From: a virus
Direction: 5' to 3' (one strand)
IMG/VR virus record: IMGVR_UViG_3300019487_000051
Location: 1 to 43,094 of that record
DNA length: 43,094 bases
Part shown: positions 2,397 through 8,901 of the stretch, piece after piece
How the letters are laid out: the number at the start of each line of letters is the position of its first letter
How positions within the stretch are numbered: position 1 is the first letter of the stretch
Program-made: the position numbers and the translations under genes
The notes under the pieces: model-generated
The model's database searches: none
Told to the model about the DNA's origin: nothing
Seen by the model: the letters and a program-made list of their open reading frames with translations, nothing else

Positions 2397-2965
2397 ACGA
2401 GAGAGATCTAAACCCAGATAAAGTTTCCACCGCTACTCGAGAGCTGCTACTCGCGTTAGGAGTAGACCTCACCGATCGGAATTTCAAAGACACTCCCGCA
2501 CGCGTCGCTCGGTTTATGATGGAGCTTTTTCGATCCAAACGATCGGACATGACAGCGTTCACGGAGGAGTACGATGGCATGATTATTCTCCGCGGACATG
2601 AGATGTGGACGTTGTGCCCTCACCACCTATTACCCGTTCGGATGATGGTCAGTATAGCCTACATCCCGTCACAAAGAGTTCTCGGTCTCAGCAAACTCGT
2701 TCGTTTAGTCGAACGCTTCAACACCAAACCATTGATGCAGGAGGAGATGACTCACAGCATCGCGGATTGGTTTGCCGACGGGGAGATAGAAGCCGCAGGC
2801 AGCGCGTGTTACATCACCGGCGAGCATCTCTGCATGCGGATGAGGGGGGTTAAAACCGGAGCAGATGTTGTTACCGCCGCATTTCGCGGGCAGTTACAGA
2901 AACAGAACGATCTCAAGAAAATGTTCATGGATATCGTCTGTGGACGAGAAGGGAGGAAGTTATGA
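2387..2965 (+). CDS. folE: GTP cyclohydrolase I (FolE/QueD-pathway entry enzyme)
   Basis: Signature WTLCPHHLLPV. MQEEMTH corresponds to the QERLT region. About 190 aa. GTG start overlaps the queC stop. Confidence 0.85.
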   Translation: MPLNERDLNPDKVSTATRELLLALGVDLTDRNFKDTPARVARFMMELFRSKRSDMTAFTEEYDGMIILRGHEMWTLCPHHLLPVRMMVSIAYIPSQRVLGLSKLVRLVERFNTKPLMQEEMTHSIADWFADGEIEAAGSACYITGEHLCMRMRGVKTGADVVTAAFRGQLQKQNDLKKMFMDIVCGREGRKL

Positions 2966-3017
2966 AATCTGTGGCCGTTGCTAGATTGCCAAGAACGCCC
3001 TGAGCGTTCCGATAGGA

Positions 3018-4694
3018 ATGTATTATCACTGTCCCGATTGCGGAGCAGATATGTTACCAAAACCCGAAGCATGTAACGGATGTCCGATGAGAAACATCGG
3101 GTTGGGGTTCGTACCTGGTCGCGGGACGCTGTCGCCCGATTTTATCGGTGTCGCACAAGCTCCCGGCAGCGACGAGGTGCATTCAGACGATCCTCAACCC
3201 CTCATCGGACCGAGCGGTAGGGTATTCTCTCGAGCGTTGTATGAGAACAATGTCACTCGGCAGAAAGTCTACCTGACAAATGTTTTGAAATGTCAACCAC
3301 CGAAGGACAAGCTACCGAGCAAAGACATCTTGCTGCCGGCTGTTGCGCATTGCACGAACGCGTATCTACGAAAAGAACTCGCAGTTGTCAAAGGTCCGGT
3401 GCTTGCCATCGGTGGGCTGTCACTGTACCACATGACAGGCAAAGAGCTACCGATCCTGACCTATCGTGGCTACCCGTATTGGAGCGAACGCTACTCTCGA
3501 TGGACAATCGGCACCATCCACCCCGCGATGGTGTTCAAGACTGCTACCGGCTCGGCAGATAAGAGCCCACCCGCGGCCATCATCCCAGCTCTGCAAAGCG
3601 ACATCCGGAAGATAAACCGTTTCACCAAACCAGCAGACATCGAAGAGAACATCGACCCGAGCGAAAGCGACATCCGGTTGGTTGTCGAGCAAGCTCTTGA
3701 CCAACGACTCGTCGCTGTCGACATCGAAACCCCCGGATTTGAAAAAGACGAAGACGAGGTATTCACCAGTGCTAAAGATATCCATCTCATCGGAGTGGCC
3801 ACAAGAGACAACCATGCAATCGTATGCTCCCCGTCGCAGTTTGAACTTCTCCGGCCCATCTTCGACCCACATAATCACGTGGTACAGATCGGGCAGAATT
3901 ATGTATCTGACCTACTCAGCCTATCGGCACGATACGGTTTCTCCGTTTCGGATACGCACGTTGAAGATATCATGCTTCAGTTTCACGCTCTATATAGCGA
4001 CTTACCGAAGCGGTTAGCTGTCATCGCGAGTTTTTTCACCACCCTACCGTATTGGAAACTAAGCAAAAAAGACTGGAAGGCAGGAGTTAGCCCCGAACGG
4101 TTCATGCGTTACAACGCGAAGGACACCATTGCGAACTGGATGTGTTTCCATGCCATGCAACCGTTGATCGAACAAAACGGGCTGACAGACACCTATCAAG
4201 CCATGCTCGGTTTGGTACCTTTCGCTGTGCAAATGTACGAGCTTGGCATCAACACCGATCAGACAACAGCTATGCGCATCCAGCTTGAACACGCGCAAGT
4301 CAACGATGCAATAGTCAAAGCGCTGACAACAGCCCTGCCGGGGTTCAACATTGAAAGCCCGATACAAGTTATGGAGCTGCTGTACGATCGGATGGGATTG
4401 CCGGAGCAGACGCACAAAGTCAAAGGCGTGGTCAAGCGGACAAGTAACGATGAGGCTTTGACCGCTCTGCAGCGGATGTTTCCACAAAACAAAACCCTCG
4501 GTTTGATTCAAACCTATCGAGGGAACAAAAAGATCATCGAGTATATCGACCATCCCGCACGTGGACGCGTTCATAGCTCGTTGAAGATCACTGGTACAGC
4601 TAGTGGGAGGTTAGAAAACCGAGAGCCGAATTTGATGCAACAACCGGATATCGTTCGCGTCGCCTACATCGCGGATGAGGAGTGTGACAGATGA
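3018..4694 (+). CDS. Family A DNA polymerase, N-terminal part: family-4 UDG-like domain, 3'-5' exonuclease and thumb. It ends just before motif A.
   Basis: N-terminal Cys cluster CPDCG...CNGCP, then GVAQAPGSDEV and GTIHPAMV (UDG family 4 motifs). VAVDIETPG (ExoI). TGTASGRLENREPNLMQQP followed by VRVAYIADEE, the conserved Pol I stretch that directly precedes motif A. Confidence 0.85.
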   Translation: MYYHCPDCGADMLPKPEACNGCPMRNIGLGFVPGRGTLSPDFIGVAQAPGSDEVHSDDPQPLIGPSGRVFSRALYENNVTRQKVYLTNVLKCQPPKDKLPSKDILLPAVAHCTNAYLRKELAVVKGPVLAIGGLSLYHMTGKELPILTYRGYPYWSERYSRWTIGTIHPAMVFKTATGSADKSPPAAIIPALQSDIRKINRFTKPADIEENIDPSESDIRLVVEQALDQRLVAVDIETPGFEKDEDEVFTSAKDIHLIGVATRDNHAIVCSPSQFELLRPIFDPHNHVVQIGQNYVSDLLSLSARYGFSVSDTHVEDIMLQFHALYSDLPKRLAVIASFFTTLPYWKLSKKDWKAGVSPERFMRYNAKDTIANWMCFHAMQPLIEQNGLTDTYQAMLGLVPFAVQMYELGINTDQTTAMRIQLEHAQVNDAIVKALTTALPGFNIESPIQVMELLYDRMGLPEQTHKVKGVVKRTSNDEALTALQRMFPQNKTLGLIQTYRGNKKIIEYIDHPARGRVHSSLKITGTASGRLENREPNLMQQPDIVRVAYIADEECDR

Positions 4695-5032
4695 ACGCGT
4701 TAGACGCTTTGCAGCGTATGACCAGCAACGACATTATCGTCGGGACGATAATCGAACTAGACGGTAACAAATACACCGTTATCCGTCTGTCCAAAGCGGT
4801 GGCTATAACGAAGGAGAAAGAACCCGGCTGGTCTGGAGCACAGAACAACCTATCGCAATTTCTTGTCAGACAAGTCACTCCGGAAGAGTCTGTGTTTTAC
4901 TTTTCCACCGAGGAGTGGGCAGTGCTACGTAAGAAGGAGAACGGAACGGTCTTCAGCTTGAACCTACTATGGAAAGTCCAAACCATCGACGAGTTTGTTA
5001 AGGAGAAAGAAAATGTACAACGGACAGAGTAA
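4691..5032 (+). CDS. Hypothetical protein inside the polymerase split
   Basis: 113-aa ORF. Its ATG overlaps the stop of polymerase part 1 (ATGA). No motif recognised. Confidence 0.4.
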   Translation: MNALDALQRMTSNDIIVGTIIELDGNKYTVIRLSKAVAITKEKEPGWSGAQNNLSQFLVRQVTPEESVFYFSTEEWAVLRKKENGTVFSLNLLWKVQTIDEFVKEKENVQRTE

Positions 5033-5201
5033 CAAACCAACTCGTTACGCAGTGCACTGTCCAGTTCATGGGCAGGTCTACCTGACAGAAGACGAACGCT
5101 TTCGCCAGCTTAACAGCTCAGACGATTGCTGGTCCTGTCCTGTGACGACCGATCCTGACGATTTCGGTCTTTGCGGGCGCGAAAAAGGGAGAGTGAGATA
5201 A
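5013..5201 (+). CDS. Small zinc-ribbon-like protein inside the polymerase split
   Basis: ATG 5013 is preceded by AAGGAG at 7-nt spacing. HCPVHG...CWSCP metal-binding pattern. The ORF-track start at 4995 is less likely. Confidence 0.4.
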   Translation: MYNGQSNKPTRYAVHCPVHGQVYLTEDERFRQLNSSDDCWSCPVTTDPDDFGLCGREKGRVR

Positions 5202-5331
5202 TGTACTGGATACCCAGGAAAGTGTGCTGAGTGCAAGACTATCTTCTATGAAGGCGATGCTCGCAAAACTTACAGTCAAATGCCACGGCGGCGCGATTGT
5301 TCTCGGGATTACATTGTGGGTGAAACATTAA

Positions 5332-6153
5332 ATGCCACTGCTATACGCGGATTTCAACCAAATCGAGTTATGGATAGTCGCACTAGAAGCGAACGATGAA
5401 CCCTTCCTTGCCATCCACGCGAGAGACGAATACGTTCACGGAGCAGCTTACGAAGATGTGTTCAAACCAGAACTGTTTTTCGAACCCGGCAAACCGAGAC
5501 GTAAAGAATTCCGTCTGCCAACGGTCACGCATGAAAAACTCAATCGAGCGAAGGCGATACCTCACGGGTTCAACTACAACCGTAAAGGCGCGTCTGTCGC
5601 AAAAGAACACAACTGGACTGAGAGGGAAGGTCGAACCTACGAAGACAAATACTTCACCGTTCATTGGGCAATTCGTGACTGGCATAAGAAAATCGACAAC
5701 GAGGTGTCAAGAGATGGACTGCTACGAAATAAATTCGGTCGGATCAGAAGATATCCGATTAAAGATAACAGTGTCTACAGCTACAAACCTCAGTCCGGAG
5801 CAGCAGACATACTTATACGTGCTATCCCGCGTATATTTGCGCGGCTTACTCTACCATCTCGAATCCTCCTTCCAGTTCACGACTCACTGCTCGTTCAGTC
5901 GCCGTGGGTTAAAATGGAACGAGACGCTCACGTTCTGGTTGAGGAGATGGAGAGACCGATTCCTCAACACAACAACTTCGTCTTCGGGACGGAGCTAAAA
6001 ATCGGTATGAACTGGAAAGACGCTGACGAGGGCAACCCTCTAGGACTAACCACCGTTACATTAGCCAATCTCCCGGAGGCAGTGCGTGAACTCGAAAAAC
6101 GATATCGTAGCAGTCAAACGGCTTATTCGATTGCTACGCGGGGAGAAGTTTGA
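5332..6153 (+). CDS. Family A DNA polymerase, C-terminal part (palm and fingers, motifs A, B, C)
   Basis: Begins MPLLYADFNQIELW (motif A, DYSQIELR-type). RAKAIPHGFNY (motif B). LLPVHDSLL (motif C). Confidence 0.85.
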   Translation: MPLLYADFNQIELWIVALEANDEPFLAIHARDEYVHGAAYEDVFKPELFFEPGKPRRKEFRLPTVTHEKLNRAKAIPHGFNYNRKGASVAKEHNWTEREGRTYEDKYFTVHWAIRDWHKKIDNEVSRDGLLRNKFGRIRRYPIKDNSVYSYKPQSGAADILIRAIPRIFARLTLPSRILLPVHDSLLVQSPWVKMERDAHVLVEEMERPIPQHNNFVFGTELKIGMNWKDADEGNPLGLTTVTLANLPEAVRELEKRYRSSQTAYSIATRGEV

Positions 6154-7516
6154 GACAACTAGTCCGGTGTTTGAAGCGACTCTTCGCTTTCTCCGACAGT
6201 TCCCGATCGACCTAGACGAAGACGATCGTACGCTGTTCAAACAAACAATCTGCACAAGCTTCGGTATAACCGAGGCTCAGTTGAAAACCTACACAGGTGG
6301 AGCGGAAGCTGACATGAACCTCGACAAGGCAGAACGGATACTCACCAGCGAGGATGCTTTCCGGCAGTGTTACCCTCCAAACGGTTTCTGTGCTCGATAC
6401 GACGAACTAACCTCCCACGTCGAGGCTCCGATCACCTTCCATATAATGTGTTTGTTAGCTATTCTCGGGAGTGCTCTTCGTCGTAGAACGTGGATGGAAC
6501 GTGGCTTCTACGATCTCTACCCCAACCTCTCCGTTGTTTTGATAGCCCCCGCTGGAGCGGCGAAGAAAGGTGCTGCGGTCTCTATCGCGGAAGGGTTGCT
6601 ACCTCCGGATCTAGTCAACGTTCTTGCGGAGAAGTTAACCCCGGAAGCTATCATCGAAGCGCTTGCGGAGGAGGAAGCTAACAGCGGTAAAGCCGCCGGG
6701 TTGCTCTGGGCTCCAGAACTCAGCGTGTTGCTCGGTAAACAAAAATACAACGATGGGATGATACCGTTGCTGAACGAACTGCTCGAATGTAAGAAGAAAT
6801 GGAAATCCCGAACAATCTCCCGAGGTGAAACCGAGCTCGGTGACATCTACGTCTCTCTCATCGGAGCGAGCACACCTGACCTCTTCGGGAGCAGTATGTC
6901 CAGCGCCGCACTCGACGGCGGGTTTATGTCTCGGCTGTTCCTCGTTGTCGAAGAGGGTAGTGATCGATCGTTCAGCGAGCCGAAAGTCGACAAGCTCGAA
7001 CTTCGTCGGATGCAGGGAGACATCTTCCGGATATTGCAGAAGCTCGAAGGGGAGATTAAACTATCCAAAGCCGCATACGATCTCTACGACAAATGGTACA
7101 ATACCCCTGACACTCTATCTGAGTTCCACGTCAAACTCGCTCCGTATTTGGAACGGAAGCCGGATCATTGCCTACGTATAGCCATCCTCTATCACTTCCT
7201 TGAACACACCGATCTGGTTATCTGTGACAGCTGCATAGCCTACGCAATCAAAACGATCGAGTTTCTGGAGAAACGCCTCCCGATCGCCTTTAACCGGTTG
7301 TTTGAATCTCGCGATGGAGAAGACGTCTCGTTGATATTGAAAGTCCTCCAACGTAATGGAGGGATGCTCGATCATGACAAGCTCATGGCGAAAACCAAAC
7401 ACCGTATGAGTTTCCAAAACCTGAAAGGACATCTAAGCACCCTTCGAGAGAGCGGTGAGATTAAGGAAGTTCACACCACTCTTGAACACTACTACATCCT
7501 CCGAAGGAAGGATTAA
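6086..7516 (+). CDS. Putative replication ATPase/helicase-like protein with C-terminal winged-helix (DUF3987-like)
   Basis: VVLIAPAGAAKKGAAV (atypical P-loop) and RLFLVVEEGSD (Walker B-like). C-terminal LKGHLSTLRESGEIKEV helix-turn-wing pattern. Lies after the polymerase. GTG start is uncertain and overlaps the polymerase by 68 nt. Confidence 0.35.
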   Translation: MNSKNDIVAVKRLIRLLRGEKFETTSPVFEATLRFLRQFPIDLDEDDRTLFKQTICTSFGITEAQLKTYTGGAEADMNLDKAERILTSEDAFRQCYPPNGFCARYDELTSHVEAPITFHIMCLLAILGSALRRRTWMERGFYDLYPNLSVVLIAPAGAAKKGAAVSIAEGLLPPDLVNVLAEKLTPEAIIEALAEEEANSGKAAGLLWAPELSVLLGKQKYNDGMIPLLNELLECKKKWKSRTISRGETELGDIYVSLIGASTPDLFGSSMSSAALDGGFMSRLFLVVEEGSDRSFSEPKVDKLELRRMQGDIFRILQKLEGEIKLSKAAYDLYDKWYNTPDTLSEFHVKLAPYLERKPDHCLRIAILYHFLEHTDLVICDSCIAYAIKTIEFLEKRLPIAFNRLFESRDGEDVSLILKVLQRNGGMLDHDKLMAKTKHRMSFQNLKGHLSTLRESGEIKEVHTTLEHYYILRRKD

Positions 7517-8634: not shown

Positions 8635-8901
8635 ATGCAACGAAACAGTAAAAAAACTCACTGTCCGAGAGGACATGCATACGACGAGAGGAATACCGGA
8701 ATAGGTCAAACAGCTACTGGGATATACCGGCGCTGTCGAACTTGCGACAGGAGGAGAAAGGAGAAATGGAAACAATGGAAACAATGGAAACAGGATACCC
8801 AATTGCGGAGGAGTTTGATAGCATCCAAGGCGAGGGACATTGGACGGGAACAGCTATGCGGTTCATCCGATTCGCCGGCTGCAACGTTGGAAGGATGCTG
8901 A
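8635..8901 (+). CDS. Small zinc-finger protein (CxxGH...CxxC)
   Basis: HCPRGHAYDERN...YRRCRTCDRRRKEK. The C-terminal part overlaps the queE start and carries the KWKQWKQWKQ repeat. Confidence 0.45.
   Translation: MQRNSKKTHCPRGHAYDERNTGIGQTATGIYRRCRTCDRRRKEKWKQWKQWKQDTQLRRSLIASKARDIGREQLCGSSDSPAATLEGC

What the first reader, a model, noticed from the sequence alone, without database searches (positions are those of the whole stretch)
4600..5400. Family A DNA polymerase split exactly before motif A by a 0.64-kb insert carrying two small ORFs
Part 1 ends ...PNLMQQPDIVRVAYIADEE-CDR-stop at 4694. Part 2 starts at 5332 with M-PLLYADFNQIELW. Joined together, IADEE..LLYADFNQIELW reproduces the continuous Pol I sequence (IRxAFxAxEGxxLxxADYSQIELR). 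The break is therefore a precise interruption of an otherwise intact enzyme; motifs B and C and both catalytic Asp are present in part 2. The insert holds a 113-aa ORF coupled by ATGA to part 1, a 62-aa Zn-ribbon ORF with its own RBS, and about 130 nt of non-coding sequence ending in TAA-ATG. It could be a genuinely two-subunit polymerase, as annotated in some podoviruses. It could also be a mobile insertion, such as a group I intron or a freestanding homing-type cassette, although I recognise no endonuclease motif. Part 1 also carries a UDG family-4-like domain with an N-terminal Cys cluster.
Basis: partly seen in the sequence, partly recalled or inferred. Interest (0 to 1): 0.62.

Follow-up and report, generated by a model that had tools for sequence, protein, structure and literature searches.

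The report
Inherited two-gene phage DNA polymerase
This soil phage encodes its only DNA polymerase as two separate genes cut in a surface loop just before the catalytic motif A; relatives share the cut but carry different genes in the gap, so it is an inherited two-piece enzyme of a kind already seen in other phages, not an intron or a recent mobile insertion.

Summary
A family A polymerase (UDG-like + 3'-5' exonuclease + thumb) ends at 4694. Its motif A-B-C half starts at 5332. The two halves are colinear with uninterrupted relatives of about 800-880 aa.

Four related metagenomic phages share exactly this break but carry different gap contents:
- This window has a 113-aa ORF, a 62-aa zinc ORF and a frameshifted gene remnant.
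- One relative has six small ORFs.
- One has a different zinc-ribbon ORF.
- The most distant has only queC, with 11 nt and 1 nt of spacer, which leaves no room for an intron core.

Both halves are under purifying selection (dN/dS 0.07 and 0.18), and they are the only polymerase in this complete 43-kb genome. Rfam finds no intron. There is no intein, no unusual RNA structure, and no HNH, GIY-YIG or T5orf172 nuclease anywhere in the genome.

The best reading is one ancient gene fission, two separately translated subunits that reassemble, and a gap that now acts as an ordinary slot for small accessory genes.

The same structural site is split independently in OM43 phage MEP401, and a PHROG family of N-terminal halves ends there. 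Earlier notes of this scan report similar splits on other DNA. This is a new member of a known kind.

The parts
3051..4694 (+). PolA part 1. It holds a family-4-UDG-like domain, a 3'-5' exonuclease (DIE, NYVSD, YNAKD), and the thumb and first palm strand, ending ...AYIADEECDR*. The ORF is open from 3018, but the conserved start is M12 at 3051.
   Evidence: Relatives start at the equivalent of M12. The gene call of the collection is 547 aa. dN/dS against L002 is 0.07.
4691..5032 (+). 113-aa ORF of unknown function, predicted all-beta. Its start overlaps the part 1 stop (ATGA). The conserved core begins at M10 (4718).
   Evidence: It is 70% identical over 104 aa to the 150-aa ORF of L002 (E 2.7e-54). 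There is no Pfam or PHROG family. The AlphaFold model has pLDDT 48 and is unusable. The ORF is absent from the gap of the JGI relative.
5013..5201 (+). 62-aa zinc-binding ORF with conserved C16-x2-H19 ... C42 ... C54, its own AAGGAG, and a 20-nt overlap with the 113-aa ORF.
   Evidence: It is 59% identical to the 76-aa ORF of L002. Both orthologues give a sub-threshold match to DUF723 (E 0.007 and 0.014). DUF723 is a Zn-finger DNA-binding module of T5orf172 homing endonucleases (bioRxiv 10.1101/2023.03.23.533998).
5201..5331 (+). Remnant (pseudogene) of a 56-aa double-CxxC zinc-ribbon gene. The ATG-TAC-TGG start is kept. An 11-nt deletion then shifts the frame, and the second CxxC is lost. The stretch ends in TAA directly before the part 2 ATG.
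   Evidence: The local alignment score to the L002 56-aa protein is 56, against a shuffle mean of 21-24 (sd 4-5), with 0 of 5000 and 0 of 3000 shuffles as good. See also the tblastn result. RNA folding gives z = +0.34, so there is no special structure.
5332..6153 (+). PolA part 2. It holds motif A (D7, E12), the fingers with motif B (RAKAIPHGFNY), and motif C (H183, D184).
   Evidence: dN/dS against L002 is 0.18. The relatives P0002 and P0003 start at the same residue.

Best explanation
The polymerase gene of this phage lineage underwent one ancient fission in the beta-turn between the palm strand before motif A and the motif A strand (about Taq E602-W604).

Both halves are now ordinary genes of one replication operon. 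Part 1 is about 61 kDa and holds UDG-like, exonuclease, thumb and first palm strand. Part 2 is about 32 kDa and holds motif A, fingers and motif C. They are translated separately and are inferred to reassemble non-covalently into one active UDG-PolA. Reassembly of split halves has been shown biochemically for other split phage enzymes.

The space between the halves has no role in joining them. It behaves like any other gene junction of this module, where small, mostly zinc-binding ORFs, and in one relative queC, are gained, lost and left to decay.

Shown here: the colinearity, the inheritance of the cut, the variable gap content, the purifying selection, and the absence of intron, intein and nuclease signatures.
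Inferred: co-transcription, separate translation, and assembly into an active enzyme.
For: 1. The pieces abut. Pfam DNA_pol_A covers positions 17-132 in part 1 and 154-381 in part 2. The contiguous relative P0004 reads ...IIIPDDPEKDLIVVADFEQIELW where the window reads ...AYIADEECDR* / MPLLYADFNQIELW.

2. The same cut occurs in relatives:
- L002/L003: part 1 is 86% and part 2 is 84% identical, with a 1.76-kb gap holding 6 ORFs.
- L005: part 1 is 70% identical and ends ...IADEECDA*, followed by a different zinc-ribbon ORF.
- The JGI contig of P0003: part 2 is 47-50% identical and starts MPLGYIDYNQLELW. Its gene order is FolE, part 1 (550 aa, UDG+PolA), QueC (215 aa), part 2, DUF3987, with spacers of 11 and 1 nt.

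3. The split clade is monophyletic (100/97) inside a clade of contiguous 800-880-aa UDG-PolAs. MW202489 has an uninterrupted 780-aa gene.

4. dN/dS is 0.07 for part 1 and 0.18 for part 2. All catalytic motifs are intact.

5. The complete DTR genome has only these two PolA pieces and no PolB.

6. There is no Rfam match at E<=10. No promoter or terminator signal lies in the gap. The start and stop codons overlap.

7. Precedents: Aeh1 NrdA and phage 25 gp43A/B reassemble and are active (PMC2988022). OM43 phage MEP401 has the same PolA site split.
Against: - No transcript, protein or activity data exist for this uncultured phage.
- Only four relatives are known. For the most informative one (the JGI contig) only the gene table could be read, not the DNA.
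- Splitting inside the catalytic palm is structurally more demanding than a split between domains.
- No complex model could be computed with the tools on hand.
Confidence: 0.8

Rival explanations
1. The cut was made by a homing-endonuclease cassette that inserted next to the highly conserved motif A coding sequence. The nuclease has since been lost, and the small zinc ORFs are its debris, for example a stand-alone DNA-binding finger. This is a statement about origin. It is compatible with the best explanation for the present state.
For: The same structural site is split independently in MEP401. The profile of PHROG family 12241, made of N-terminal halves, ends there. The 62-aa ORF and its orthologue give weak DUF723 matches. 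DUF723 is a Zn-finger DNA-binding domain of T5orf172 homing endonucleases. The gap contains a decaying gene. Earlier scan notes on other genomes describe endonuclease-split PolA genes (these are leads only).
Against: No HNH, HNH_3, GIY-YIG or T5orf172 domain occurs anywhere in the genome or in the six gap ORFs of L002. The DUF723 scores are below the Pfam cut-off. Small zinc ORFs also sit at other junctions of the module and move between junctions, so they are not specific to the polymerase gap.
Confidence: 0.3
2. The insert is a self-splicing intron (group I or II), or is otherwise removed at RNA level, so that a single polypeptide is made.
For: Group I introns are well known in phage PolA genes (SPO1, T7-like phages; cited in PMC10580990). 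About 130 nt of the gap is not an intact ORF.
Against: No Rfam family matches at E<=10 in 4000-6500. The 5195-5345 stretch folds no better than shuffles (z +0.34) and is a gene remnant. The gaps of relatives are 1.76 kb of tightly packed ORFs, or queC with only 12 nt of spacer. Nothing is conserved between them that could form a ribozyme core. The part 1 stop overlaps the next start codon, as in coupled translation.
Confidence: 0.03
3. The polymerase is a broken pseudogene, and the phage relies on a host polymerase.
For: The gene is interrupted inside its catalytic domain.
Against: dN/dS is 0.07 and 0.18. All catalytic residues are kept. The same cut persists to about 50% divergence. Part 2 keeps a start codon placed exactly at the cut in every relative.
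Confidence: 0.04
4. Assembly or sequencing artefact, or a protein-level join by a split intein.
For: None beyond the interruption itself.
Against: The same cut appears in records listed under separate sample accessions: ENA, two Logan runs and JGI. Only 3-4 residues follow, and 1-2 residues precede, the homologous sequence at the cut. That leaves no room for intein halves, and Pfam finds none.
Confidence: 0.01

Closest known systems
Split DNA polymerase of OM43 phages MEP401/MEP402 (ORF13 / ORF14 / ORF15; Microbiol Spectr 2023, PMC10580990; OP830906)
   Same: It is a family A polymerase cut at the same structural position. MEP401 part 1 ends ...IKTLFLSRYGE* and part 2 starts MILNADAKALEW, 5 residues before the motif A Asp. 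The gap holds a small ORF of unknown function and no recognisable endonuclease. The authors also left the mechanism open.
   Different: MEP401 lies in a distant PolA clade in the tree, so the event is independent. It has no UDG domain. Its gap holds a single 78-aa ORF (237 nt between the halves). It is a marine phage with no 7-deazaguanine genes.
'Genes-in-pieces' of T4-like phages: Aeh1 nrdA-a/mobE/nrdA-b (Friedrich et al. 2007, PMC1851037) and phage 25 / 44RR gene 43A/43B (reviewed in PMC2988022)
   Same: An essential replication enzyme is cut inside a functional region into two separately translated polypeptides. In those phages the polypeptides co-purify and are active. This is the mechanistic model adopted here.
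   Different: The enzymes differ (class I RNR and family B polymerase). A homing endonuclease gene or an untranslated spacer sits in the gap. Here no nuclease is present and the gap content differs between relatives.
Exo/pol gene fission in S-SBP1-like T7-like cyanophages (Czernecki et al. 2023, PMC10201439) and Pseudomonas phage LUZ24 (gp25 exonuclease subunit ... gp34 'DNA polymerase part II', NC_010325)
   Same: This is PolA gene fission with unrelated small genes between the pieces. LUZ24 has eight genes between gp25 and gp34. Assembly is inferred from modelling.
   Different: Those cuts lie between the exonuclease and polymerase domains. Here the cut is inside the palm of the polymerase domain itself.
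UDG-PolA fusions (N4-like cluster 17 and unclassified UDG-PolAs such as SPO1; PMC10201439)
   Same: The architecture is the same: an N-terminal family-4 UDG-like domain, a 3'-5' exonuclease and a PolA domain.
   Different: Those enzymes are single polypeptides of 800-900 aa. Here the last ~270 aa are a separate gene.
Group I introns in phage PolA genes (SPO1/SP82, T7-like phages)
   Same: They interrupt a phage family A polymerase gene near conserved motifs.
   Different: No ribozyme core, no intron-encoded endonuclease and no conserved non-coding sequence is found here.

Membership tests
Family A DNA polymerase (Pfam PF00476) | Profile match above the curated cut-off | tested here: met
   Part 1 scores 51.4 bits and part 2 scores 78.2 bits, against a cut-off of 34.3. 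PDB hits are to Bst, Taq and Klenow.
Family A DNA polymerase (Pfam PF00476) | Catalytic motif A (DxxxxE), motif B (O-helix K...Y) and motif C (HD) | tested here: met
   All are read directly in part 2: D7...E12 in DFNQIELW, K74...Y82 in RAKAIPHGFNY, and H183-D184 in VHDS. D7 aligns to Taq D610.
Family A DNA polymerase (Pfam PF00476) | Polymerase activity of the product | not testable with these tools
   This needs expression of both halves.
Genes-in-pieces split phage enzyme (Aeh1 NrdA, phage 25 gp43A/B, MEP401 DNAP) | Two separate ORFs that are colinear with a contiguous homologue, each with its own start and stop | tested here: met
   There is no missing segment. The turn is 1 residue longer than in P0004 and about 3 residues longer than in Taq.
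Genes-in-pieces split phage enzyme (Aeh1 NrdA, phage 25 gp43A/B, MEP401 DNAP) | Homing endonuclease gene in the gap | tested here: not met
   There are no HNH, HNH_3, GIY-YIG or T5orf172 matches in the genome. The gap ORFs have no nuclease family. This feature is also absent in MEP401 and 44RR.
Genes-in-pieces split phage enzyme (Aeh1 NrdA, phage 25 gp43A/B, MEP401 DNAP) | Halves associate and are active | not testable with these tools
   This is inferred from purifying selection on both halves and from the absence of any other polymerase.
Group I / group II intron | Match to an intron covariance model, or a conserved structured core | tested here: not met
   Rfam at E<=10 gives only two chance hits to unrelated families. 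Folding gives z +0.34. The queC gap of the relative has 12 nt of spacer.
Group I / group II intron | Spliced mRNA | not testable with these tools
Split intein | N- and C-intein blocks at the new termini | tested here: not met
   Only the residues CDR follow the homologous sequence in part 1, and only M(P) precedes it in part 2. Pfam finds no intein family.
Family 4 uracil-DNA glycosylase (domain of part 1) | Four Fe-S cysteines and the C-terminal HP(S/A) motif | tested here: met
   In the alignment to TM0511 and Tth UDG (E 5e-15), C19, C22, C92 and C112 are matched and H168-P-A is present.
Family 4 uracil-DNA glycosylase (domain of part 1) | Catalytic motif GE(G/A)PG | tested here: inconclusive
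   The window reads AQAPG where TM0511 reads GEGPG. Whether activity is kept cannot be told from sequence.

The most novel reading that the evidence does not exclude
The beta-turn just before motif A is a recurrent, convergent fission point of family A polymerases. It has been hit independently in at least this soil UDG-PolA clade and the marine MEP401 clade, and probably in further lineages (a PHROG family of N-terminal halves; orphan proteins such as P0031 that start 6 residues before the motif A Asp). The likely cause is that homing elements target the motif A coding sequence. Once cut, the site persists for long periods as a neutral cargo slot that can even capture DNA-modification genes such as queC. 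This would make intra-catalytic-domain PolA heterodimers a widespread and unstudied enzyme form.
Probability: 0.3. Interest if true: 0.5.

Novelty: new member of a known kind. Interest (0 to 1): 0.3.

Why it matters
It shows that a replicative family A polymerase can persist over long evolutionary distances, down to about 50% identity, when cut inside its catalytic palm. This gives a natural and apparently well-tolerated split point, about Taq 602-604, that protein engineers could use for split-polymerase designs.

For annotation, such halves should be called subunits rather than pseudogenes or intron-containing genes.

The variable gap, which holds queC in one relative, illustrates how fission sites turn into ordinary gene-insertion slots in a phage module that also encodes 7-deazaguanine DNA modification.

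Tried and rejected
1. Near relatives in GenBank phages (blastn) and IMG/VR: none. JGI metagenome scans: none. DNA of the JGI contig could not be fetched, so only its gene table was used.

2. The six-frame Pfam match ran from part 2 across the TAA up to profile position 118. This suggested a relic duplicate of the pre-motif-A segment (SARLSS...). A profile of that segment built from 65 contiguous PolAs scores the true end of part 1 at 37 bits, but does not place the upstream stretch among its top-scoring hits, which apart from the true part 1 end were all shuffles at or below about 3 bits. The extension is an alignment artefact.

3. I tested whether the last codons before part 2 are a remnant of the L002 83-aa ORF. 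The result was not significant (249 of 3000 shuffles as good), and I dropped the idea.

4. The AlphaFold2 model of the 113-aa ORF has pLDDT 48. It was too poor for a fold search, so none was run.

5. The short part-2-like proteins found by word search (P0152-P0185) are fragments of bacterial Pol I, not splits. Loci fetched with P0031 hold contiguous polymerases, so the context of that third possible lineage stays unknown.

6. Promoter and terminator scan: nothing in the gap.

Full report
**What is there**

The window is a complete 43,094-bp virus record with direct terminal repeats.
- An ORF open from 3018 ends ...PNLMQQPDIVRVAYIADEECDR-TGA at 4694.
- A 113-aa ORF starts in the ATGA overlap at 4691.
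- A 62-aa ORF with its own AAGGAG runs 5013-5201.
- Part 2 starts at 5332, directly after a TAA, with MPLLYADFNQIELW.

Pfam places a UDG domain, a 3'-5' exonuclease and DNA_pol_A profile positions 17-132 in part 1, and positions 154-381 in part 2. PHROGs agrees.

Alignment to solved structures puts part 2 D7 on Taq D610, the motif A aspartate, and the end of part 1 near Taq 600. From my knowledge of the Taq sequence (...RRAFIAEEGWLLVALD610YSQIELR), the cut lies in the turn between the strand before motif A and the motif A strand. Compared with the contiguous relative P0004 (...IIIPDDPEKDLIVVADFEQIELW), nothing is missing and the turn is one residue longer.

The exonuclease motifs (DIE, NYVSD, YNAKD) and motifs A, B and C are intact by direct reading.

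**Relatives**

GenBank phages and IMG/VR hold nothing close. The protein collections gave three relatives.

1. L002/L003 (farmland soil). Part 1 is 86% and part 2 is 84% identical, with the same ends (...IADAECDA* and MPLLYADFNQIELW). The gap is 1.76 kb with six ORFs of 133, 150, 76, 86, 56 and 83 aa. The 150-aa and 76-aa ORFs are orthologues of the window's 113-aa and 62-aa ORFs, at 70% and 59% identity.

2. L005. Part 1 is 70% identical and ends ...IADEECDA*. It is followed, again with overlapping stop and start, by a different zinc-ribbon ORF (CGRC ... HCPDCGA).

3. The 27.7-kb JGI contig that carries P0003. Part 2 is 47-50% identical and starts MPLGYIDYNQLELW. Its gene table reads FolE, part 1 (550 aa, UDG + DNA_pol_A), QueC (215 aa), part 2 (253 aa), DUF3987. 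The spacers are 11 nt and 1 nt.

All more distant relatives are single polypeptides of about 780-880 aa. In a maximum-likelihood tree of the motif A-to-C region, the three split sequences form one clade (100/97) inside the contiguous UDG-PolA group.

**What this excludes**

- Intron. An intron needs a conserved structured core. Rfam finds none at E<=10. The only stretch of the gap that is not an intact ORF folds no better than shuffles. The queC gap of the JGI relative leaves 12 nt in all.
- Split intein. There is no room for one, because only 3-4 and 1-2 extra residues sit at the two ends.
- Pseudogene. dN/dS is 0.07 for part 1 and 0.18 for part 2. The start codon at the cut is preserved in every relative. 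These pieces are the only PolA, and there is no PolB, in a complete genome.
- Assembly error. The same cut appears in records listed under separate sample accessions (ENA, two Logan runs and JGI).
- Active homing cassette. The genome has no HNH, HNH_3, GIY-YIG or T5orf172 domain, and the gap ORFs of the window and of L002 match no nuclease family.

**The gap**

The '130 nt of non-coding sequence' is a gene remnant.
- It keeps the ATG-TAC-TGG start of the L002 56-aa double-CxxC protein.
- It then lacks 11 nt and continues in another frame as YPGKCAECKTIFYEGD..., where L002 reads FPGECFECGEHFNEGD....
- It has lost the second CxxC.
- The similarity beats all of 5000 residue shuffles and 3000 nucleotide shuffles.

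Small zinc ORFs also move between other junctions of this module.
- A stop-containing remnant of the L005 gap ORF (ICGRC*...YYHCPDCGADM) lies upstream of part 1 in the window (2964-3053).
- A CP(K/R)GH...RC(R)xC ORF sits after DUF3987 in L002 but after dpdA in the window (8635-8901).

The polymerase gap therefore behaves like any other gene junction in this module. The 62-aa ORF has a sub-threshold DUF723 match in both orthologues. DUF723 is a Zn-finger DNA-binding module of T5orf172 homing endonucleases. This is the only hint, and a weak one, of a past homing element.

**Mechanism proposed**

One ancestral fission occurred. The halves are co-transcribed within the replication operon: there is no promoter or terminator signal in the gap, and the stops and starts overlap. 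Part 1 and part 2 are translated separately and assemble non-covalently by completing the palm sheet.

The assembly step is inferred. The precedents are Aeh1 NrdA-a/b and phage 25 gp43A/B, which reassemble and are active (PMC2988022; Friedrich et al. 2007, PMC1851037). A further precedent is the modelled exo/pol heterodimer of S-SBP1-like cyanophages (PMC10201439).

**Comparison with what is known**

Split PolA genes are described in several phages:
- an uncultured cyanophage lineage (bioRxiv 10.1101/325100);
- S-SBP1-like phages, cut at the exo/pol boundary;
- LUZ24, which has an exonuclease subunit and 'part II';
- OM43 phages MEP401/402 (PMC10580990).

I read the MEP401 genes. Its part 1 ends ...LFLSRYGE* and its part 2 starts MILNADAKALEW. 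That is the same structural site as here, in a distant PolA clade. The profile of PHROG family 12241 ends at that point for both MEP401 and this window.

Earlier notes of this scan also list PolA genes split at or before motif A on other DNA. I treat those as leads only. Unlike some of those cases, motif A here is in frame and needs no recoding.

This window is therefore a new member of a known kind. The new elements are:
- the UDG-PolA architecture of the split enzyme;
- evidence that the cut has been inherited through deep divergence while the gap content turned over, including queC;
- the observation that the same turn was cut independently in two clades.

**Verdict**

The two-subunit reading is supported (confidence about 0.8). 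The intron and mobile-insert readings are not supported for the present state, and an ancient homing origin remains possible. Interest is moderate to low (0.3).

Noticed in passing
window 5542-5574 (part 2 residues 71-81, NRAKAIPHGFN): Motif B has His at the position of E. coli Pol I F762 / Taq F667 / T7 Y526. By my recollection this residue governs dideoxynucleotide discrimination. The split clade keeps His (P0003 reads AKAIPHGLNY), while contiguous neighbours have Leu (P0004 GPLGMIY, P0006 AVPLGFQY). The Arg usually four residues before the motif B Lys is also displaced.
   Followed up: no
window 3150-3164 (part 1, AQAPG): The family-4-UDG-like domain keeps the four Fe-S cysteines and the HPA motif, but reads AQAPG where TM0511 reads GEGPG. 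UDG-PolAs have been linked speculatively to modified-base phages (PMC10201439). This phage carries a 7-deazaguanine gene set.
   Followed up: partly
window 2964-3053: In the frame of part 1, the stretch between folE and the conserved part 1 start reads EICGRC*IAKNALSVPIGMYYHCPDCGADM. It looks like a stop-containing remnant of the zinc-ribbon ORF that in relative L005 lies downstream of part 1 (KICGRC...QYHCPDCGAMV; tblastn E 6e-4). The 3018 start and the first 'Cys cluster' are therefore probably not part of the polymerase.
   Followed up: partly
window 8635-8901; L002 6234-6425: A small ORF with THCP(R/K)GH...RC(R)xC sits after dpdA in the window but after the DUF3987 gene in L002. It has no Pfam family. 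This is another example of small zinc ORFs occupying different junctions in close relatives.
   Followed up: partly
JGI contig of P0003 (gene table only): queC lies between the two polymerase halves, whereas in the window and in L005 it lies upstream of folE. The deazaguanine genes are reshuffled within the replication module between relatives.
   Followed up: partly
window 6086-6153: The DUF3987 (primase/helicase-like) ORF, as listed from a GTG, overlaps the end of part 2 by 68 nt. L002 has the same kind of overlap (59 nt). The true start was not examined.
   Followed up: no
representative proteins P0007, P0009, P0010, P0015, P0017: Several ~430-aa relatives start at the beginning of the polymerase domain. 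They could be contig-end fragments, or a second fission type at the exo/pol boundary in the sister clade. Their context could not be looked up.
   Followed up: no
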